Source: a virus. From it: a DNA stretch of 64,000 bases. The stretch spans positions 1-64,000 of IMG/VR virus record IMGVR_UViG_3300045118_000377, one strand, 5' to 3'. The translations under genes were made by a program, and so were the position numbers. Positions 2,038 through 39,809 of the stretch are shown here, piece by piece (within the stretch, counting starts at the first letter, position 1; every line of letters begins with the position of its first letter). Under the pieces are notes generated by a model. It ran no database searches and was not told the DNA's origin. It saw only the letters and a program-made list of their open reading frames with translations.

Positions 2038-2064
2038 AAACGATCTCCTTTCTTGGTTACTGAT

Positions 2065-2094
2065 CTTATCCCCTACGGGTGATCGGTTTTGCAG
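2065..2094 (-). promoter_or_regulatory. Repeated phage promoter motif CTGCAA-N18-GATAAG
   Basis: Near-duplicate at 14113-14148. Same architecture at 6543-6572 and 15262-15302. Confidence 0.65.
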
Positions 2095-2096
2095 CT

Positions 2097-2119
2097 AAAA
2101 AGAGCCCGTTGCGGGCTCT
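2097..2119 (-). terminator. Intrinsic terminator closing the RAMP/array operon
   Basis: Minus strand reads AGAGCCCG-CAA-CGGGCTCT-TTTT. Confidence 0.8.
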
Positions 2120-2120
2120 A

Positions 2121-3596
2121 GTACAGGTAGGTTGGGTGACCAGTGCTGGTCGGCGCGATCGATTTCGTCGATCGGCCAGCAGCGTATCGCGCGAGCGGGT
2201 TACAGCTTGTCAGCCGGCGCGGGAAGGCGTGGCCATCGTCGCGACTGGACCAGTCTCGTCAGATGACACGACCCGAGGCGTACTGATCCTGCTTGTCACC
2301 AGACTTGGATCACGTAGTGATGGCTCGTCTGGTGGAAGGCGCAGAGCGGCATCGGCCCGCATTGTCATTCGGCTTGCGGATCGAAAGGGCAGCTCCGGGG
2401 TAGGGTTGTCGCCGGGCTTGCAGAGTCCGGTAGGGGCGCAGCTTGTCAGCTGTTGTGTTGGGACGGCCGTACTGTCACGCGAACTGTCTGAGGAGAGGCC
2501 GTCACTCGGTAGGGTGGTCCAGGGAAAGCATCGGCATGTCACATGCCGCGATCCGAGAGGTCGTGAGTGGTGCTAGCTTGTCACTTGACAAGGATCGTCG
2601 CGCGATGAGTGGACTCGTCGTTCGTAGCGAGAAGGATGAGTACGGTCTGGTGCGAAACGTCGCTCGGCAGGGGTGACCGGGAGGCAGGGTTGCCAGAGCT
2701 TGTCGAATGAGCGAACTGCGTGGAGTTGGGTTGCGATGTCTCGGGGCAGGGATGGGTTCCCGCACGATCTGGACGCGGTGCAGCTTGTCAGCTGGATCGT
2801 TAGGGCTGGTACGTCACTTGGCAAGAGCTCGTCGATTGCGATGGCTCGAGCCGAATGATCGCGTAGGGACAAGAGTCGGCTCGTCGCTGGGCCTGAGTGG
2901 AGCGCCGAGACCGGTGAAGGGTAGTCGTGCGGATAGGACAGTCTTTGAACGTCGGCAGGCCAGATCCGAGCAGACTGGTCTTGTCGCTCGACGCGTCACG
3001 GTGCGGCATGCAAAGCCACGTCATTTGCAGTGTGCAGCGAGGAGAAGCGATCCGTCGATCGACTAGGTCAGGGAGACGTGTCATCGGGGTCAGCAGGCCA
3101 CGAGAAAGCTCGTCGCACGGGCAGATACGGTACATGAAGACGCAGCTGGACTCGTCGACCGCGGCGGGAAGGCTTGCCCGAAAGGACAAGGCAGTAGGCT
3201 CGGGTAGTCATCTGACCTGGTATGCTCAATGAGGTCGCATGCAGCGACCCGCTTCGATCACGACTCGACTCGTCACATGGCCCGCAACGCCAAGGGTCGC
3301 TATGCACAAGCTCGTCGCGCGGTAGAGAAAGGTTCAAGCTGATCCAACACGTCCGCTGTCGAGGGTTGGCGAACCTAGTCCCGTGATACGGCTTGTGATG
3401 TCACGCTCAGACATGGCTCGTCGTGCGGCTCACGTCGATCTCGCGTGGACCAGTCGCAGGAATTGGTGGGGAGCGATGCAACTGATCTTGGCGGCGGGTA
3501 GTCGGCAGAATCGATCGGTCCAAGGAGGAATAGTCGGTGGTTGCGAGAAGAGCGGGAGGGTCGCTGGTACTGAGATCGTTAGAGGTTCGGCTTGTC
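2121..3596 (-). ncRNA. 5-nt-periodic array of about 40 non-identical units, GA(CNNNN)n; putative guide-RNA array
   Basis: Plus-strand units are (NNNNG)nTC, e.g. 2330-2366 tggtG gaagG cgcaG agcgG catcG gcccG cattG tc; 2954-2985 ggcaG gccaG atccG agcaG actgG tcttG tc; 2986-3022; 2583-2619; 3536-3562. Common lengths are 27, 32, 37, 42 and 52 nt. Unit ends are often GCTTGTC or GCTCGTC. No credible CDS. The pattern is observed; RNA function is inferred. Confidence 0.75.
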
Positions 3597-3604
3597 TACC
3601 TGCC

Positions 3605-3862
3605 CTAGCGATCAGGTTCCTTCAGCGACTCTCCCCAGGTGAGAACCTCGGCTGGTAGGGCCGTGGCGCTCACGTCCCATTTGGCTCCTTCGTCCAACCG
3701 CGGCATGGCCAGCAGGAGGTCGGAGATACGATTCTCCACCACCCGCTGGCTGGGAATGTTCTCGCCCATCGGCGCTCGCACGTAGACCCGTATGCAGATG
3801 TCGTAGTGGCCGGCGTCCCCGACGTACCGTGCGGGGACATCACCATCAGGTCGGGTCTTCAT
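3605..3862 (-). CDS. Hypothetical protein (85 aa), last ORF before the array
   Basis: Overlaps the upstream ORF; stop codon lies 8 nt before the first array unit. Confidence 0.6.
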   Translation of the reverse strand: MKTRPDGDVPARYVGDAGHYDICIRVYVRAPMGENIPSQRVVENRISDLLLAMPRLDEGAKWDVSATALPAEVLTWGESLKEPDR

Positions 3863-4316
3863 GTGCCTTCTCCAGCTTTTTGGCAGCCTCCACCACCGCG
3901 TCCCAGGTGTTGCCTCCCTCTATGCCATTGGCGCTGATGGCCAACCACCAGCCACCAAACTCGCCCGCGCGGGGTTTGGAACACGTGCCGGCTCCGGTCA
4001 TGGTGAAGATCTGCGTCGGTCGGAAGCGGCGAAGGAACGCCTGGACGAACCAGATCAGGTGATTCTCATCGAACTGATCCTCCGCATACAGGTGCAGCCG
4101 TTTGTGCTTGGTGTCATTGTAGATAGACCACTCGAAGTTCGGCCAGTTGTCCAGCGCGTCGGGCTCGAGGTCGACCTCGAGCCCTAGGGCGTCGTAGACC
4201 TTCATCACCTCCTCATCGGTCTCGGTGGGCATCCGGAGGATCTCGTTGACCCACTTGTCTTCGCGCTTCTTGATCTTGTCGATGACTTCGCTGAATTGGG
4301 AATAGCTGTCAGCCAT
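3846..4316 (-). CDS. Hypothetical protein (156 aa)
   Basis: Coupled ORF with SD and genome-typical codon usage. Confidence 0.75.
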   Translation of the reverse strand: MADSYSQFSEVIDKIKKREDKWVNEILRMPTETDEEVMKVYDALGLEVDLEPDALDNWPNFEWSIYNDTKHKRLHLYAEDQFDENHLIWFVQAFLRRFRPTQIFTMTGAGTCSKPRAGEFGGWWLAISANGIEGGNTWDAVVEAAKKLEKAHEDPT

Positions 4317-4650
4317 CGGTCTTCTCCCTCTCTGGATGTCCGACCCAGCCGGCAGGGTCTTCCTGGGCGCAGTCGGAGAACGGGCAGGTCTCGTCCGGGC
4401 AGCGGCCGTCCTTCAAGGACGCCCCGCACCTGGCGCAATGGATCTCCTGCAGGAGTTTGATGTCGTCGTTGGTCGTGCCGTCCGGCATGTCGTGCAGACT
4501 GACCCACACCCACGCCTGGACGTAGAGCCCGTCGTCGGGCGGGTCGGCGATGGAGAACTTGGTCTCATCGTCGATCTCGATGTCGCCATCCTCTTGGTAC
4601 TTGGATCGAGCGACATCGATCACGGTCTGTTTCAGCTCGTCCTTGGTCAT
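4309..4650 (-). CDS. Hypothetical protein with C-terminal Cys cluster
   Basis: CARC...CPDETCPFSDC; ATGA overlap with the upstream gene. Confidence 0.7.
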   Translation of the reverse strand: MTKDELKQTVIDVARSKYQEDGDIEIDDETKFSIADPPDDGLYVQAWVWVSLHDMPDGTTNDDIKLLQEIHCARCGASLKDGRCPDETCPFSDCAQEDPAGWVGHPEREKTDG

Positions 4651-4862
4651 GACCTCCTCCTCCTCCGGAGTTTGCGCACATGGTGAATCACGTTGTCACG
4701 GGTGAACTCCATGTCCTCCTCGAGCAGCTCCATGATCTCGTTGTGCATTCGCTGTCGTCCCTCACGGAAGCCGCGCATGAAGGAGTCGGCATCGAAACGT
4801 CCCAACAGCTTCTCCACGCCCGTGAGGAAGTCCTGACGGCTCATGACTCTGGACTTGGGCAT
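4647..4862 (-). CDS. Hypothetical protein (71 aa)
   Basis: Coupled to the upstream gene by a TGATG overlap. Confidence 0.65.
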   Translation of the reverse strand: MPKSRVMSRQDFLTGVEKLLGRFDADSFMRGFREGRQRMHNEIMELLEEDMEFTRDNVIHHVRKLRRRRRS

Positions 4863-5137
4863 CAGTCGCTCTCCGGCTCGGGCTCCGGCCCCACGCGGTC
4901 GTAGGGCTCTTGGGACTCCTCCTCCTCCTCATCCTCGTCCACGTCCACGTTGCTCTTCAGGGTCGACTCGATGGAGTCGAGGTCGTAGCCCTGGCTGAGC
5001 AAGTAGTCGATCTGCGCGGTCGTGCCGGAGTTGTTGATGTCGGTCGCCTCATTCGACTTCATGTCGTGGACCTCGCCATCCAGCGCATCACTCAGGTGGT
5101 GCTTCTCGGCGTAGGCGATCAGCTGTTCGCGGGTCAT
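4862..5137 (-). CDS. Acidic hypothetical protein (91 aa)
   Basis: Coupled ORF with a D/E-rich C-terminus. Confidence 0.7.
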   Translation of the reverse strand: MTREQLIAYAEKHHLSDALDGEVHDMKSNEATDINNSGTTAQIDYLLSQGYDLDSIESTLKSNVDVDEDEEEEESQEPYDRVGPEPEPESD

Positions 5138-5376
5138 GTGCCCTCCTTCTCGTCGATGTCAGCGCGCGAGATGCGGTTGGGATTGAAGTAGACGTTGACG
5201 TAGACGATGTTCCTCCAGGTGCCGTCGGAGGCCGGCTCCATCTCGTGGATCTCTGGCAGGGCCGCCTGCAACGTCTTCAGAGCTTCGTCCTCGCTGTCGG
5301 CCTCGACCTCCGCGCAGAAGCCGACCGGCCCGTCATCCGAGTCTCCCAGGCTGAAGTGGTACCTAGCCTTCGGCAT
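5134..5376 (-). CDS. Hypothetical protein (80 aa)
   Basis: Coupled ORF with a VEADSEDEA motif. Confidence 0.7.
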   Translation of the reverse strand: MPKARYHFSLGDSDDGPVGFCAEVEADSEDEALKTLQAALPEIHEMEPASDGTWRNIVYVNVYFNPNRISRADIDEKEGT

Positions 5377-5602
5377 AGCTGCACCTGATATCGACCTCGT
5401 TGTCGTTCTCGTCGAACACCGGGCCGTCCCAGATGAACATCAGCGGCCGGCTATGCTCGTCGTCCACCGTGAACGGGTGGTCCTCCTGGTTGAGCCGGTT
5501 GCACTCCGGTGTGAAGATGGCGAGCAGCGCCTCGACGTTCGCAGCCTCGATGATGACCGAGCCGGGATGGCAGATGTCCCCCATCAGTCTGTACTTGGGC
5601 AT
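5363..5602 (-). CDS. Hypothetical protein (79 aa)
   Basis: Starts 3 nt after the RAMP gene stop. Confidence 0.7.
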   Translation of the reverse strand: MPKYRLMGDICHPGSVIIEAANVEALLAIFTPECNRLNQEDHPFTVDDEHSRPLMFIWDGPVFDENDNEVDIRCSYAEG

Positions 5603-5605
5603 GGG

Positions 5606-6460
5606 CTACTCCTCTGCCTCGGCATCCGCCTTCTTGCCCTTGCCGGCCGTGCGCGCCTTCTTCTCGTAGATCGGGGTCTCGACCTTGGCCGTCTGCTTCA
5701 TGCCCACGATCTCCACGCGCCCGAAGCCCTGGCTGCGGCTCGCGCCCCACCCGTTGTCCTGGCAGAGGGTGAGGAAGAAGACGAGGTCCTTCTCGCTGAC
5801 CTTCACGGTGTTGCCGGATGCCGCGCGCCGGAGCTCGAACTTGAACTCGGCACCGGGGGCCACGTACTCGTGGATCTTGATGGTGGAGCGCGGACCCTGC
5901 GGGCCGGTGATGTGGGCGACCATGGTCTCGGTGCCATCGGGCCCCTTCAGGATCTTGCCGTCGCGGTAGAAGAAGATGGCGTCGGGGTGATCGATGCCGC
6001 GGGCGAACATCGCGTGCTGGATGACCTGCTTGGAACCCCAGTCGCTGACGGTCTTGCCCAGGGTCGTGGCAGCCTCACGCAATCCGGCCTTGATCTGCCT
6101 GCTCTCCACGAAGATGGCCCCGCGGAAGGGCTCGAGCGTCGGGTCCTGCGCGATGCGGTCGTCGTCCACGACCTTGAACACGCACGTGCTCTTGTCGCTG
6201 GCGGCCTCGGTCTCGACCGCCGGGTCCTTGGTGGCGGCCTCCGCGATGCGAGCCTTGGCGGCGTCCACCACCTCCTGGGTGACCAGCCCCTTGCGGGCGC
6301 GGGCCTCGAGCATGGCGAGCTCGGCCTCGGCGTTCTTGGGCCAGCCGGCGAGCATCTTGTTCGCCGTCTGGCAGGTGATGACCCACTTCTCGTAGAGCTG
6401 GTCGGCCCCGTACTTCTTCATGAGCTCCTGGAAGCTGTTGACTGGTCCGGTCTTGTCCAT
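5606..6460 (-). CDS. Solo Cas7/Csm3-like RAMP-superfamily protein (284 aa)
   Basis: IFVESRQIKAGLREAA resembles the group-7 RAMP 'iPgSslKGalR' segment. HEYVAPGAEFKFEL matches 'E.v..g..f.f.l'. C-terminal Gly-rich loop GWGASRSQGFGRVEI. AAGGAG SD. No other cas genes in the window. Confidence 0.8.
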   Translation of the reverse strand: MDKTGPVNSFQELMKKYGADQLYEKWVITCQTANKMLAGWPKNAEAELAMLEARARKGLVTQEVVDAAKARIAEAATKDPAVETEAASDKSTCVFKVVDDDRIAQDPTLEPFRGAIFVESRQIKAGLREAATTLGKTVSDWGSKQVIQHAMFARGIDHPDAIFFYRDGKILKGPDGTETMVAHITGPQGPRSTIKIHEYVAPGAEFKFELRRAASGNTVKVSEKDLVFFLTLCQDNGWGASRSQGFGRVEIVGMKQTAKVETPIYEKKARTAGKGKKADAEAEE

Positions 6461-6510
6461 GACACACTCCTTGTTGTGCGACCTCAGTCGCTGAATGGGG
6501 ATCTGAAGGA

Positions 6511-6572
6511 CTTATATCAACGATCCGAGTGGAATTCGTAGCCCGAAAGGACTGCGATTTCCTTGGGATAAG
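6511..6572. promoter_or_regulatory. Divergent promoter pair
   Basis: Minus strand TACGAA-N18-TATAAG (6540-6511) faces the RAMP operon. Plus strand CCGAAA-N18-GATAAG (6543-6572) faces the small-ORF cluster. Confidence 0.55.
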
Positions 6573-6591
6573 AAACTACAAGGAGGTCAAC

Positions 6592-6807
6592 ATGGCTTTG
6601 ATCGAGATCTTCGTGGGCATGCCGTTGGACAACTTCCAGCGCCTGGCCAAGACCGACAAGAAGGCGGCCGCGGTCGCGTTGAAGGACGAGCTCAAATCGT
6701 TCAACGCCTACCTCGAGAGTCAGCGGATGGATCCGATGGGGCGCATCGAGGAGTCGATCGTCCGCGAGTACATCGGCTGGAAGCTGATGGAGCGAAAGGA
6801 TGGCTGA
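6592..6807 (+). CDS. Hypothetical protein
   Basis: AAGGAGG SD before ATG 6592. Confidence 0.7.
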   Translation: MALIEIFVGMPLDNFQRLAKTDKKAAAVALKDELKSFNAYLESQRMDPMGRIEESIVREYIGWKLMERKDG

Positions 6808-14086: not shown

Positions 14087-14112
14087 AATGATCTCCTTCC
14101 TTGGTTACCGTT

Positions 14113-14148
14113 CTTATCCCTAGGAAGGTGATCGATTTTTCAGCTAAA
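14113..14148 (-). promoter_or_regulatory. Second copy of the promoter/leader element at 2065-2100
   Basis: TTTAGCTGAAAAATCGATCACC...TAGGGATAAG here versus TTTAGCTGCAAAACCGATCACC...TAGGGGATAAG at 2065-2100. Confidence 0.65.
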
Positions 14149-15237: not shown

Positions 15238-15261
15238 AATACCTCCTTTCTTGGTCATGTT

Positions 15262-15302
15262 TCTTATAACCTGCAAAAACGATCGGTTTGCAGGTAATAA
15301 GA
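15262..15302. promoter_or_regulatory. Palindromic bidirectional promoter element
   Basis: TCTTATAACCTGCAAAAACGATCGGTTTGCAGGTAATAAGA, between divergent genes that each carry CAAGAAAGGAG before ATG. Confidence 0.7.
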
Positions 15303-15328
15303 GATCCAATCAAGAAAGGAGATAGTTC

Positions 15329-15541
15329 ATGGGTGAGAAGAAGCGTTTGGCCATGGAGATGCAGGAGATGGCGGGCTGCTTGCGGCGTGCGGGCGTCAAC
15401 TTCATCATCGCGGTGGACCTTGGTCGGAAGGGCAAGGTTCACAACGTGATGGTGGAGATGGAGTCGCAGGACCACCACCACACTCTGGATCTACTGTGCG
15501 GGATCCTGGAGGTATGGTGGGACGGCAGCCACAAGAAGTAG
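15329..15541 (+). CDS. Hypothetical protein (70 aa)
   Basis: AAGGAG SD. Confidence 0.7.
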   Translation: MGEKKRLAMEMQEMAGCLRRAGVNFIIAVDLGRKGKVHNVMVEMESQDHHHTLDLLCGILEVWWDGSHKK

Positions 15542-37177: not shown

Positions 37178-39809
37178 GACAGGGCGGTTGCTTCCAGCCA
37201 AGGGCGAATTCGCTCCAGGCATTCCGAAATCAAGAACGATCAGACCTCTGCCGCCGGTGCCGCGCGGCCAGCCCCAGCAGTGGGAGCTCGCCACTCAGCT
37301 CCACCACGCAGAGAAGGCCGGTCCGCACACCGACCTCCGCCTGGTAGATCCCGAAGGCCACGCCCACAGCTGGGTGCTGCCCGACACCGGCCTCCCAAAA
37401 CCGGGTGAAAAATTCTACCTCCCGCAGGTCGAGACCCACACGCGGGAGTACGCCGCGCGCAAGGGCGAGTTCGAGCTGCCGGCTGGCTATGGCAAAGGGA
37501 CCGTGACCGGCTCGGGCCTGCGCCCGGTAGACGTCCATTACAGTGAGCCTGGAAAGCTCCGTTTCAGCCTGTTGGAAGGCAAAAACCCTCAAGATTACAT
37601 ACTGGTACGGTCACCCAAGGGGTGGGTTATCCACAACTTTTCACCGACAGCGGAAGCGGGTGTGCGTGGATCGAAGGGTTTCGCCATCCCGCAGGCGAAG
37701 CCAGCGTACAAGGAAAAGCCAACAACTTCGGTGGAGTTCGACGACCCGAGGGTGATCCATCAGGCCAAGATCGACGGCGCGCACGTGACCGTCCACATCC
37801 CGAACAAGGACAGCCAGGTCCGGGTGTTCTCCTACCGCCCGACCGAGGCTGGGACCGGGGTCATCGAGCATACCCACAAGTTGCCCTCGTACCACACGCT
37901 GCGTGCCCCTGGGAGCCTCGCTGGCACCGTTCTCCGCGGTGAGGCATGGGCGGCAGGCCCGGACGGCAAGGCGCTGCCAGCGGAGCGTATAGGCGGCCTC
38001 CTGAACGCGGGCGTGGCCCGTTCCAGAGAGCTCCAGCAGGAGCATGGCCCCCTACGCCTGTCGGTCTTTGACGTGGTGCGGCACAAGGGCAAGCTCATGG
38101 AGAACGCCCCCTACGCCGAGAAGCTCGAGGTGCTCCGGCAGGTGGCGAAGGAGATGCCCCAGCTCGAGCTCCCGCCCACGGCCGAGACGCCGGAGGAGAA
38201 GCTCAAGCTCTTCACTCGCATCCAGGAAGGGAAGGAGCCGGTCACCCGAGAGGGGATCGTGGCCTGGCATCTGGACCGGCCACTGCCAACCAAGATCAAG
38301 TTCCGACCTGATGTTGATGCCGAGGTCGTGGGAGTGTTTCCAGGTAAGGGGAAGCACGAAGGACGAGCCGGTGGGCTGGTGGTGAAGCTGCCGGGGTCCG
38401 AGGCTACCACGAGAGTTGGAACTGGCTTCTCCGATCAGATGCGCAAGGAGCTGTGGGAGAGACAGCACGAGATCGTGGGGCGCGTGGCGCGTGTGGCGAC
38501 TCAGCAGGTGTTCCCGAGCGGCAAGATGCGGGCACCGGCGTTCAAGGACTTCCACACGGAGAAGGGCAAGATCGCTTCGGGCAGGCACAGAGTCGAACAT
38601 CTCACTACGGATGAAGAGAAGCTGGAAGCTGCTAAGTTGCAAGAAGGGATCGGTTTCGGACTTGGCCCGATCAAGCCATTGCATCCCAAGTGGGAGTATT
38701 ACGGCATTCGTAGTGACGACAACAAGCTGGTTGCTGTGAGCCGAGTCAACAAAGAGCCGTTGAAGGAGTGGGAAGGTTCAAAGGACTACGAGCAGATCGC
38801 TCGGCACAGGCCGGATGTATCTATCTCGGCCACTACCGTCCACCCGGAACATCGCAGGAAGGGCATGGCAAAAGCTCTCCGAGCTCACGTCCAGGATCGA
38901 TACAACACGATCATATCTGGTACCGGGGCAGAGTCAGACCTACCAGCTATGTCTAGGATCTTGGAGCAACAGGGGTTCGAGCCTATTTGGCACCGTGGGG
39001 CGAACACGCAGTACGTGTGGAAGAAGCAGGCAATGCTCGAGGCCCTAAAGGATGAACTGAACAAGGTCGCGGCTCCTGATATCAGCCCCGCGCAAGAAGT
39101 GGTTCCAGACCCTGCTCAAGATCGCCCATCGCTTGTTGGCGGCATCGCTGCGACTGGCGGCGGCACGTTGCTGGCGGCCGATATGAGAAAGCGGTTGCTT
39201 GGCGAGAAAGTAATCTACCACGGCACACATTCGGATGAAGCCGCAAAAGGGATCATGGAGCATGGGCTCCAACCTTCGTACGGTGGCACGGGGGCAGCGA
39301 AGCTGACGCCAAACTATGTAGCGCGTAGCAAAGGAAAGGTGCACGTCACGGGCGTTAAGCCTGTTGCGATGATGTTCCGATCGTTCGACCCAGAGACCTA
39401 TCGTCGTGAGGGTTACGATATCGGACACCTCGTGCGCGGGAACTTGCCTGGGGCACCAGGCACGGTGGTCAAAGCGCGCATCCCGATGTCCCTTTGGGAC
39501 AAGTTAGAGATCGATCCAGACATGCTGGGACATACCCCGCAGAACGAACTTCAAGAGGCCATGATCAAGGAGATCGGAGCTCGTGGGGCGCACCCCATCG
39601 AGTCGAAGTACATCAGTGGGGGCCGTGGCAGTATCAGTCGAATCCCCGAAAAGATCGTGGAACTCGGGAGGGAGTTGCCTGGCTATGTCAAGAGACACCC
39701 TCTGCGTTTCGGGGTTGGAGCGCTTGGAACAGCCGGGGGTCTCTATCTTGCCGGCAGGGGAATAGGATCTCTGCGTAGAAGATTCTCCACGCCTACTGAG
39801 GAAGGATAG
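37158..39809 (+). CDS. Polyprotein: LigD-type 3'-phosphoesterase + ATP-dependent DNA ligase + GNAT + ADP-ribosyltransferase-like domain
   Basis: PE: QLHHA..GPHTDLRL..HSWVLP..ETH..GYG. Ligase: KIDG, LRGE, VFD, EGIV, KFR, and OB-fold VGTGFSD. GNAT: VHPEHRRKGMA. ART-like: IYHGT...IMEHGLQP. C-terminal Gly-rich hydrophobic helix. Confidence 0.75.
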   Translation: MPLGDRKTGRLLPAKGEFAPGIPKSRTIRPLPPVPRGQPQQWELATQLHHAEKAGPHTDLRLVDPEGHAHSWVLPDTGLPKPGEKFYLPQVETHTREYAARKGEFELPAGYGKGTVTGSGLRPVDVHYSEPGKLRFSLLEGKNPQDYILVRSPKGWVIHNFSPTAEAGVRGSKGFAIPQAKPAYKEKPTTSVEFDDPRVIHQAKIDGAHVTVHIPNKDSQVRVFSYRPTEAGTGVIEHTHKLPSYHTLRAPGSLAGTVLRGEAWAAGPDGKALPAERIGGLLNAGVARSRELQQEHGPLRLSVFDVVRHKGKLMENAPYAEKLEVLRQVAKEMPQLELPPTAETPEEKLKLFTRIQEGKEPVTREGIVAWHLDRPLPTKIKFRPDVDAEVVGVFPGKGKHEGRAGGLVVKLPGSEATTRVGTGFSDQMRKELWERQHEIVGRVARVATQQVFPSGKMRAPAFKDFHTEKGKIASGRHRVEHLTTDEEKLEAAKLQEGIGFGLGPIKPLHPKWEYYGIRSDDNKLVAVSRVNKEPLKEWEGSKDYEQIARHRPDVSISATTVHPEHRRKGMAKALRAHVQDRYNTIISGTGAESDLPAMSRILEQQGFEPIWHRGANTQYVWKKQAMLEALKDELNKVAAPDISPAQEVVPDPAQDRPSLVGGIAATGGGTLLAADMRKRLLGEKVIYHGTHSDEAAKGIMEHGLQPSYGGTGAAKLTPNYVARSKGKVHVTGVKPVAMMFRSFDPETYRREGYDIGHLVRGNLPGAPGTVVKARIPMSLWDKLEIDPDMLGHTPQNELQEAMIKEIGARGAHPIESKYISGGRGSISRIPEKIVELGRELPGYVKRHPLRFGVGALGTAGGLYLAGRGIGSLRRRFSTPTEEG

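What the first reader, a model, noticed from the sequence alone, without database searches (positions are those of the whole stretch)
2097..6540. Candidate RNA-guided system: solo Cas7-like RAMP co-oriented with a 5-nt-periodic, non-CRISPR array
Seen: a promoter-like motif (6511-6540), the RAMP gene with its G-rich loop, seven coupled small ORFs, an array starting 8 nt after the last stop, and an intrinsic terminator, all on the minus strand. No cas1, 2, 3, 5, 6 or 10 and no identical CRISPR repeats are in the window. Established: Cas7 polymerises along crRNA with a fixed nucleotide step and flips out one base per subunit. Inference: each CNNNN pentamer is one RAMP-subunit footprint, with the fixed C held by the protein and four variable bases reading a target, so each unit is a guide of n subunits. 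From memory and unverified here, phage VIPR systems pair a RAMP with GGY/NN 5-nt RNAs. This array fixes only one base in five and adds a GAC delimiter, so it may be a distinct variant with a different code. With no nuclease evident, it might act by binding or silencing competing phages or host genes.
Basis: partly seen in the sequence, partly recalled or inferred. Interest (0 to 1): 0.95.

Follow-up and report, generated by a model that had tools for sequence, protein, structure and literature searches.

The report
Phage VIPR guide-RNA system, C-anchored array
A lake phage carries a lone CRISPR-like RNA-binding (RAMP) protein and a 1.5 kb array of about 38 short five-letter-repeat guide units, a divergent member of the VIPR systems first described in 2026; its repeats lie on the gene strand with a fixed C rather than the published GGY.

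Summary
On the minus strand a 284-aa gene (6460-5606) is followed by seven overlapping small genes, a 1.48 kb non-coding tract (3596-2120) and an intrinsic terminator (2119-2096). The tract has a real 5-nt rhythm: C lag-5 autocorrelation 0.158, z = 6, the strongest in the 95 kb phage record. GAC occurs 60 times against 26 expected. It parses into about 38 in-phase tracts, most often 42 nt (GAC + 7 NNNYC + 4), joined by a +2 nt frame shift at GAC.

The protein is a RAMP. The alignment-based AF2 model (pLDDT 91.7) matches Csm3/Cmr4/type VII Cas7 chains, and a profile search hits RAMP G-loops.

Of 50 loci encoding relatives, 43 carry the same array grammar beside the gene, always with the C on the gene strand. 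One is the cultured Microcystis phage Mae-JY09.

This is a VIPR-type system (bioRxiv 2026.04.26.720920), so the kind is known; this scan has logged about 300 VIPR-like loci on other DNA.

Which strand is the RNA remains open. Operon context favours the gene strand (S-Y-C/NN units with a GAC start). The opposite strand would read G-R-S/NN, close to canonical GGY/NN. Targets and RNA expression could not be established.

The parts
6461..6590 (-). Divergent intergenic region upstream of the RAMP gene, with a -10-like TATAAG at 6516-6511. Probable operon promoter, not proven.
   Evidence: a + strand gene starts near 6592 behind an AAGGAGG ribosome-binding site, so the region is divergent; no sigma-70 consensus match; the motif partly resembles the GATAAGA core of a repeated leader element.
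5606..6460 (-). vipr-like gene: a 284-aa lone RAMP (Cas7-like) protein with G-loop GWGASRSQGFGR (residues 237-248).
   Evidence: profile hits the RAMP chain 4n0l_A (E 1.3e-4) and Csm3 4qts_C (E 1.3e-3). AF2 pLDDT 91.7. Foldseek top hits are Cmr4/Csm3/type VII Cas7 chains (E about 5e-7); top viral hits are viral RAMPs (best E 5.9e-16); 1600 cluster representatives at E <= 1e-3.
3605..5602 (-). Seven translationally coupled small genes (79, 80, 91, 71, 113, 156 and 85 aa) of unknown function between the RAMP gene and the array. They are not conserved in relatives.
   Evidence: coordinates and overlaps. GC3 0.76-0.91; no family, except that the 113-aa ORF (4309-4650) hits phrog_6739 (unknown function, E 4.6e-7); none clusters with neighbours of vipr homologues in 46 other loci.
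2120..3596 (-). Array of about 38 in-phase tracts of NNNYC pentamers joined at GAC, mostly by a +2 nt frame shift. The modal unit is 42 nt (GAC + 7 pentamers + 4 nt). Presumed guide-RNA (vrRNA) precursor.
   Evidence: stable in lake metagenomes from 2018 to 2025, with 6 SNPs and no indels.
2096..2119 (-). Intrinsic terminator closing the operon directly after the array.
   Evidence: stem 2119-2101, 8 pairs, 6 GC, loop of 3, then TTTTT.: -13.2 kcal/mol.
2045..2074 (-). Repeated promoter/leader element (GATAAGA...AACCAAGAAAGGAG) that starts the next transcription unit. It bounds the locus.
   Evidence: family D2: copies at 2045-2074, 14093-14122 and 15243-15272, plus an inverted copy at 15292-15341.

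Best explanation
This is a phage-encoded VIPR-type RNA-guided system. One operon runs from about 6520 to 2096 on the minus strand. It encodes a lone RAMP (Vipr-like) protein and seven small proteins of unknown role, then a 1.5 kb untranslated array, and ends at an intrinsic terminator.

The array is most likely transcribed with the operon from the gene strand. It would then be cut into roughly 40-nt guides, each starting at GAC and carrying about 7-8 pentamers.

By analogy with the solved type II VIPR complex, one RAMP protomer would bind each pentamer. It would sequester the constrained 3' part (S-Y-C, with C dominant) and expose the two free bases. Together these would spell a gapped 14-16 nt address on double-stranded DNA of a competing phage or of the host, giving silencing by binding.

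Shown here: the RAMP fold, the array grammar, family-wide co-occurrence with a fixed relative strand, and the operon boundaries.
Inferred: transcription strand, processing at GAC, RNA binding, the read-out rule, and the targets.

The confidence of 0.6 is for the whole statement, gene-strand transcription included. That the locus is a VIPR-type system at all I put at about 0.9.
For: Fold:
- Searches place the protein among RAMPs.

Array statistics:
-.

Co-occurrence:
- 43 of 50 homologue loci have the same grammar next to the gene. The pentamer logo is N-N-S-(C>T)-C, with C above 90% in most loci. GAC is at about 90% of junctions. Median units are mostly 35-55 nt.
- Strand is fixed: 29,028 nt in array state on the gene strand against 1,477 nt on the opposite strand.
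- The cultured Microcystis phage Mae-JY09 shows the same layout at the end of a rightward block of genes; 63 of its 66 genes are on that strand.

Gene-strand transcription:
- A terminator lies directly after the array in the window and in the closest array-bearing relative L004.
- The next promoter/leader element follows that terminator.
- Downstream arrays start 1-90 nt after the vipr stop codon in 17 loci.
- In six loci an upstream array ends only 16-28 nt before the vipr start codon, so it must lie in the vipr leader.

Literature:
- VIPR is a Vipr RAMP plus 5-nt-repeat vrRNAs. It has one protomer per repeat, a 1-nt skip rule, staggered arrays and NNNNG-type repeats.
- Non-GGY cores ending in a pyrimidine are reported (GAC/NN, CAC/NN).
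- In a weak alignment to SUSP1 Vipr, the Arg that contacts the pyrimidine (R179) aligns with the invariant R242. The two G-reading residues (D177, W178) align with A/C and S.
Against: - No RNA data exist for this phage, so neither transcription nor the strand is shown.
- The reverse complement of the family pentamer, G-R-S-N-N, is close to canonical G-G-Y-N-N. In SUSP1 the G-type repeats lie on the vipr strand. An antisense, canonical reading is therefore a serious rival.
- In the L018 clade the hairpin between vipr and the array scores as a weak minus-strand terminator.
- A long C-rich, G-poor untranslated RNA would be a good Rho substrate (general knowledge, not tested here).
- No target was found under any skip rule.
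- The free dinucleotides do not look codon-like.
- The alignment to SUSP1 Vipr is poor: hhalign probability 15.6%, G-loop only.
- The window's array is more degenerate (C about 78%) than those of relatives (above 90%).
Confidence: 0.6

Rival explanations
1. Same VIPR system, but the guides are transcribed from the strand opposite the gene. Each RNA would then be a run of G-R-S-N-N pentamers ending in GTC. That is the published G-type code (the NNNNG/NNNGG variants) in a staggered array, and the locus would be an ordinary member of a described type.
For: - The reverse complement of N-N-S-Y-C is G-R-S-N-N, with G above 90% in relatives.
- Canonical repeats are GGY/NN, and both G's are essential.
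- The paper lists NNNGG, YNNNG and NNNNG repeats and staggered arrays.
- A weak minus-strand terminator-like hairpin lies between vipr and the array in L018.
- The variable tract would precede a short conserved 3' end (GRCTY-GTC), as in type II vrRNAs.
Against: - No promoter-like site was found for the opposite strand.
- Arrays are wedged between co-directional genes, with 1-90 nt gaps.
- Gene-strand terminators follow the array in the window and in L004.
- Upstream arrays abut the vipr start codon.
- Mae-JY09 is almost entirely unidirectional.
- In SUSP1 the vrRNAs are on the vipr strand. An always-antisense layout in more than 40 loci would be a new arrangement in itself.
Confidence: 0.3
2. 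The array is not a guide. It would be a cis-acting or scaffold RNA or DNA element: for example a YC-rich Rho-loading or attenuation leader, a decoy that soaks up the RAMP or a rival's RAMP, or a decaying relic of a once-functional array.
For: - No target was found.
- The window's pentamers are degenerate (C about 78%).
- The array did not change between 2018 and 2025.
- Repeated YC dinucleotides are what Rho's primary sites bind (general knowledge).
Against: - Unit lengths are quantised (42, 39, 35 nt) and GAC junctions are conserved across a protein family down to about 25% identity.
- The first two pentamer positions are near-uniform and differ between units, the signature of an address code.
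- The published relatives are experimentally programmable guides.
Confidence: 0.07
3. A stripped-down CRISPR-Cas remnant: a Cas7 gene next to a degenerate CRISPR array.
For: The best structural matches are type III and type VII Cas7 subunits. Unit starts such as GAC, TTGCGAC and ATTGCAAC recall crRNA 5' tags (from memory).
Against: - There are no identical direct repeats and no tandem repeats.
- Cas1 was not found in the record; the other cas families were not scanned.
- The period is 5 nt, not 60-79 nt.
- The same lone-RAMP layout recurs in 43 viral loci.
Confidence: 0.02

Closest known systems
VIPR systems (Vipr RAMP + vrRNA), bioRxiv 10.64898/2026.04.26.720920 and 10.64898/2026.04.26.720927; experimental exemplar is type II of Escherichia phage SUSP1
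   Same: - Phage-borne lone RAMP protein with a G-loop.
- No cas genes and no CRISPR array.
- An adjacent non-coding array with a strict 5-nt rhythm: a constrained part plus two free bases.
- Many guides per locus.
- The paper itself reports contiguous 'staggered' arrays and repeats with as little as one fixed base (NNNNG).
   Different: - The protein is 284 aa against 195 aa. It aligns to SUSP1 Vipr only over the G-loop (hhalign probability 15.6%).
- On the gene strand the constrained part is S-Y-C (C dominant), not G-G-Y.
- Units are about 40 nt and start at GAC, with a 2-3 nt frame shift. They have no individual promoter and no structured 3' tail.
- The array is inside the operon and closed by a terminator.
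- No recognisable vap gene; seven unrelated small genes are inserted between the RAMP gene and the array.
Non-canonical VIPR arrays from the Evo-PIN survey (bioRxiv 10.64898/2026.10.21.760802): cores GAC/NN, CAC/NN, WGT/NN, TGH/NN
   Same: A 5-nt period beside a Vipr-like fold. The fixed trinucleotide differs from GGY and often ends in a pyrimidine. GAC itself is one reported core.
   Different: S-Y-C/NN is not among the cores named in the text. There GAC is the repeating core; here it is only the unit-start signal. The figures and cluster lists could not be read, so identity with one of their 21 clusters is not excluded.
Type III / type VII CRISPR backbone subunits (Csm3, Cmr4, Cas7)
   Same: They are the best solved-structure matches (Foldseek E about 5e-7, probability 1.0). 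In those complexes one subunit binds per fixed step along the guide and bases are flipped out.
   Different: The step is 5 nt, not 6. There are no repeat-spacer array, no Cas10/Cas5/Cas6 partners and no adaptation genes. TM-scores are only 0.4-0.58.

Membership tests
VIPR | Lone RAMP-fold protein (RRM core, glycine-rich loop, thumb) | tested here: met
   RAMP and Csm3 profile hits over the G-loop; pLDDT 91.7. Csm3/Cmr4/Cas7 chains, E about 5e-7; viral RAMPs, E 5.9e-16 and 7.4e-13.
VIPR | Demonstrable kinship to a published Vipr protein (SUSP1 Vipr) | tested here: inconclusive
   hhalign probability 15.6%, 44 columns around the G-loop only. The SUSP1 protein was not seen among the listed BFVD hits. 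No Vipr chain is in the PDB copy. The paper's locus tables are not held.
VIPR | Adjacent non-coding array of tandem 5-nt units, each a constrained part plus variable bases | tested here: met
   Window. Family: (43 of 50 loci).
VIPR | GGY/NN or a related consensus on the RNA strand | tested here: inconclusive
   The gene strand reads N-N-S-Y-C and the opposite strand reads G-R-S-N-N. The RNA strand is unknown. In SUSP1 the GGY repeats are on the vipr strand.
VIPR | Viral or proviral location, with no cas operon or CRISPR array | tested here: met
   The record is a 95,490-nt virus record. There is no Cas1 match and no Pfam RAMPs-model match in the record; other cas families were not scanned. There are no tandem repeats in the window. 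47 relatives lie on IMG/VR contigs.
VIPR | vap accessory gene next to vipr | tested here: inconclusive
   Seven small ORFs have no family. No neighbour family is shared between the window and 46 other loci. Subclades have their own conserved upstream ORFs of unknown function.
VIPR | vrRNAs are expressed and co-purify with the protein | not testable with these tools
   No RNA run is listed for this DNA.
VIPR | Targets obey the 1-nt skip rule (NN x NN x ...) | tested here: inconclusive
   In the local 0.8 Mb search the canonical rule gave 3 hits against 1.3 in shuffles at 16 specified bases. Two exact scans of IMG/VR, with 22 and 24 specified bases, gave 0 hits.
VIPR | Staggered-array architecture (contiguous vrRNAs, where the end of one marks the start of the next) | tested here: inconclusive
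   Units are contiguous and frame-shifted. This fits the figure legend, but the figure and the stated 1-nt overlap could not be checked.
CRISPR-Cas class 1 | Identical direct repeats separated by spacers, and adaptation genes | tested here: not met
   no tandem repeats; no Cas1.
TIGR-Tas | About 18-nt period arrays with a Nop-domain Tas protein | tested here: not met
   The period is 5. The protein has a RAMP fold and no Nop domain in Pfam.

The most novel reading that the evidence does not exclude
This large clade (about 1600 cluster representatives) may use guides made from the gene strand. The protein-held part would then be S-Y-C rather than GGY. Each guide would begin with a short conserved 5' handle ending in GAC (clade variants include TTGCGAC, TCACGAC and ATTGCAAC), resembling the 8-nt 5' tag of class 1 crRNAs. 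That would give a second, C-anchored VIPR code. It would also give a crRNA-like 5'-handle-plus-guide layout cut from a long operon transcript, a possible intermediate between VIPR arrays and CRISPR repeats.
Probability: 0.4. Interest if true: 0.75.

Novelty: new member of a known kind. Interest (0 to 1): 0.5.

Why it matters
VIPR is a months-old class of minimal RNA-guided DNA binders, and only type II has been dissected.

This locus belongs to a very large, mostly uncultured clade. Its arrays are long (about 38 guides here, up to 2.9 kb in relatives), sit inside the operon and always share the gene's strand.

If the RNA comes from that strand, the protein reads a different fixed motif. The guides would then have a crRNA-like 5' handle. 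That would broaden the programmable code and bear on how CRISPR repeats arose.

If the RNA is antisense, the clade is an ordinary G-type VIPR with an unusual convergent layout.

One cultured phage, Microcystis phage Mae-JY09, carries the same system, so a single strand-specific small-RNA experiment could settle the question.

Tried and rejected
- Single-sequence AF2 gave a useless model (pLDDT 38) and was replaced by the 129-sequence run.
- Megablast of the locus against phage records found nothing.
- Rfam found no family in the window and only a tRNA in ten array-rich loci. No hammerhead ribozyme was found to fix the strand.
- Sequencing runs: no RNA holder listed. Only DNA contigs from lake-water metagenomes could be laid.
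- Target search:
  - Gapped-word matching of 511 guides against 0.8 Mb of related phage DNA under 36 read/skip rules gave no convincing excess. The apparent excess for a 3-nt skip is an artefact of unmasked array copies.
  - Two exact IMG/VR scans with clean 11- and 12-pentamer guides under the 1-nt skip rule gave 0 hits.
  - Guides of 7-8 pentamers are too short for exact scans of large collections to be informative, so the window's own guides were not scanned.
- Codon test: the free dinucleotides are not better explained by codon positions 1-2 than by their own base frequencies.
- My own terminator scan over all loci was too noisy to decide the strand. The tool did not confirm the L026 site or the L004 site at about 9945, the closest array-bearing relative; the latter rests on my own scan and the sequence.
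- Sigma-70 promoter scans found nothing on either strand of the locus.
- PHROGs and Pfam gave nothing for six of the seven small ORFs.

Full report
WHAT IS THERE

On the minus strand of the window the features run in this order:
- A divergent intergenic region, 6590-6461. A + strand gene starts near 6592 behind an AAGGAGG site.
- A 284-aa ORF, 6460-5606.
- Seven small ORFs that overlap by 1-17 nt or sit 3 nt apart, 5602-3605.
- After 8 nt, a 1.48 kb stretch without coding signal, 3596-2120.
- An intrinsic terminator: stem 2119-2101, 8 pairs, then TTTTT.
- A repeated promoter/leader element, 2074-2045, that also precedes other early genes.

All eight ORFs have GC3 of 0.76-0.95. The array has no codon-position signal. 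The locus is therefore one bounded transcription unit.

Only a -10-like TATAAG at 6516-6511 is present.

THE ARRAY

- C autocorrelates at lag 5 (0.158). In 2000 shuffles the value is 0.00 +/- 0.027, with a maximum of 0.090. This is the strongest period-5 signal in the whole 95,490-nt virus record.
- GAC occurs 60 times, against 26.4 +/- 4.7 in shuffles.
- Anchoring on GAC puts C at -25 ... -5 and at +2 ... +27, so GAC marks a +2 nt phase jump.
- A phase-tracking Viterbi parse gives 38 in-phase tracts. Of 37 junctions, 25 are +2 shifts.
- The commonest tract lengths are 42 nt (six times) and 39 nt (five times). A 42-nt unit is GAC + seven pentamers + 4 nt.
- The first pentamer after GAC is biased to RAGYC.
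- Within pentamers the last base is C (about 78%). The fourth is about 75% pyrimidine near the anchors. The third is G-enriched. The first two are near-uniform.
- The array is unchanged in lake-water metagenomes sampled in 2018 and 2025, with six SNPs and no indels.

THE PROTEIN

- Pfam and PHROGs give nothing beyond a sub-threshold Cas6 G-loop match.
- A profile of 24 homologues hits a RAMP-domain protein (4n0l_A, E 1.3e-4) and Csm3 (4qts_C, E 1.3e-3) over the G-loop.
- With a 129-sequence alignment, AF2 gives pLDDT 91.7.
- Foldseek then ranks Cmr4, Csm3 and type VII Cas7 chains first (E about 5e-7, probability 1.0, TM 0.4-0.58).
- In BFVD the top hits are viral RAMP proteins, with E 5.9e-16 and 7.4e-13.
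- The family is large: 1600 representatives of 50%-identity clusters at E <= 1e-3.
- Invariant motifs are ESRQIKAG, H..GPQGPRS and G.G..RSQ..G.

RELATIVES

- Fifty loci encoding relatives were fetched: 47 IMG/VR contigs and three MAG contigs.
- An HMM with a background state finds an array of at least 100 nt beside the gene in 43 of them. A lag-5 scan finds signal in nearly all.
- The grammar is shared. The logo is N-N-S-(C>T)-C, with C above 90% in most loci. GAC is at about 90% of junctions, usually as CGAC, with clade-specific extensions such as TTGCAAC, TCTTCGAC and TCACGAC. Median units are mostly 35-55 nt. The frame shift is usually +3, and +2 in the window, L017 and L049.
- The relative strand is fixed: 29,028 nt of array state on the gene strand against 1,477 nt on the other.
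- Only vipr itself is conserved around these loci. The window's seven small genes have no counterparts. A recurrent downstream gene is a DnaB-like helicase, which reflects synteny with the replication module.
- Among 50,697 phage records, three family members used as tblastn queries found only one match: Microcystis phage Mae-JY09 (PP395641.1). Its gene WWT39994.1 is followed at once by GAC + (NNNCC)6-8 units and a strong hairpin, at the end of a rightward block of genes; 63 of its 66 genes are on that strand.

WHAT IT IS

VIPR systems were described in 2026 with these features:
- a lone viral RAMP (Vipr);
- vrRNAs made of GGY/NN pentamers, with one protomer per repeat;
- GGY flipped out and held by the protein, NN pairing with DNA, and one target base skipped per repeat;
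- silencing of rival phages;
- seven types, 'staggered' contiguous arrays, and alternative repeats NNNGG, YNNNG and NNNNG.

A later survey reports 21 clusters with other cores: GAC/NN, CAC/NN, WGT/NN and TGH/NN.

The present locus meets the structural and architectural criteria and belongs to this kind. This scan has already logged about 300 VIPR-like loci in other genomes.

THE OPEN POINT: WHICH STRAND IS THE RNA

In SUSP1 the GGY/NN repeats lie on the vipr strand. Here the gene strand reads N-N-S-Y-C.

For the gene strand:
- The terminator sits after the array, not before it, in the window and in the closest array-bearing relative L004.
- A fresh promoter/leader follows that terminator.
- Downstream arrays begin 1-90 nt after the vipr stop codon in 17 loci.
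- In six loci an upstream array ends 16-28 nt before the vipr start codon. That leaves room only for a ribosome-binding site, so the array must be part of the vipr leader.
- Mae-JY09 is almost unidirectional.
- Read this way the core S-Y-C ends in a pyrimidine, like GGY and the reported GAC and CAC cores.
- In a weak alignment, the SUSP1 Arg that contacts that pyrimidine aligns with the invariant R242, while the two G-reading residues are replaced.

For the opposite strand:
- G-R-S-N-N is close to G-G-Y-N-N.
- The published list includes NNNNG.
- A weak minus-strand terminator-like hairpin lies between vipr and the array in L018.
- A C-rich untranslated RNA would invite Rho (general knowledge).

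I put the gene strand at about 0.6-0.65. The class assignment stands at about 0.9 either way.

MECHANISM

The operon transcript carries the array and is cut at or near GAC. RAMP protomers then coat each roughly 40-nt unit, one per pentamer, and hold the constrained bases. The free dinucleotides of 7-8 pentamers address a gapped 14-16 nt DNA site, and binding represses it. All of this is inferred by analogy. No nuclease is encoded nearby.

Targets were not found. Earlier target claims for other VIPR loci in this scan partly failed later checks, so I make none.

VERDICT

- The locus is a new member of a known but very recent class, in a large divergent clade.
- The strand and the fixed motif deserve one decisive experiment.

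Noticed in passing
window 2045-2074, 14093-14122, 15243-15272; inverted copy at 15292-15341: A repeated promoter/leader element. On the minus strand it reads roughly GGGATAAGATCAGTAACCAAGAAAGGAG. It precedes several early genes, and one pair forms a back-to-back palindromic copy.
   Followed up: partly
window 2329/2332 and 2792/2795: Two lake metagenome runs each show a paired change, CTGG to ATGA on the + strand, at different places in the array. One destroys a junction GAC. The same four-base context appears twice, which suggests a specific mutational or modification-related process, or an assembly artefact.
   Followed up: no
L054 (Microcystis phage Mae-JY09, PP395641.1) 37713-38976: A cultured cyanophage carries the same RAMP gene followed by about ten GAC + (NNNCC)n units and a strong hairpin, at the right end of the record. 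All of it is annotated only as 'hypothetical protein' or left unannotated.
   Followed up: partly
L001 8535-8565, L014 about 5960-6010, L018/L022 8526-8550: In several low-GC relatives a G-run/C-run hairpin without a U-tract on the gene strand sits between the vipr stop codon and the array. It could be a processing or stability element, or a terminator for antisense transcripts.
   Followed up: partly
window 4309-4650 (-): The 113-aa small ORF has a CxxC ... CPDETCPFSDC cysteine cluster (zinc-ribbon-like). It is the only one of the seven with a PHROG hit (phrog_6739, unknown function).
   Followed up: no
L015 7000-8050 and L050 100-1100: Over the stretches read, a 52 kb IMG/VR viral contig and a 13 kb contig binned into a Chloroflexota MAG carry the same vipr-array sequence. 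This hints at the host of that phage, or is a binning artefact.
   Followed up: no
whole record G000: The virus record is 95,490 nt, linear, and CheckV rates it 52% complete. The closest array-bearing relative lies on a 178 kb contig. The phage may therefore be roughly 180 kb, and further arrays or accessory genes could lie outside the record.
   Followed up: no
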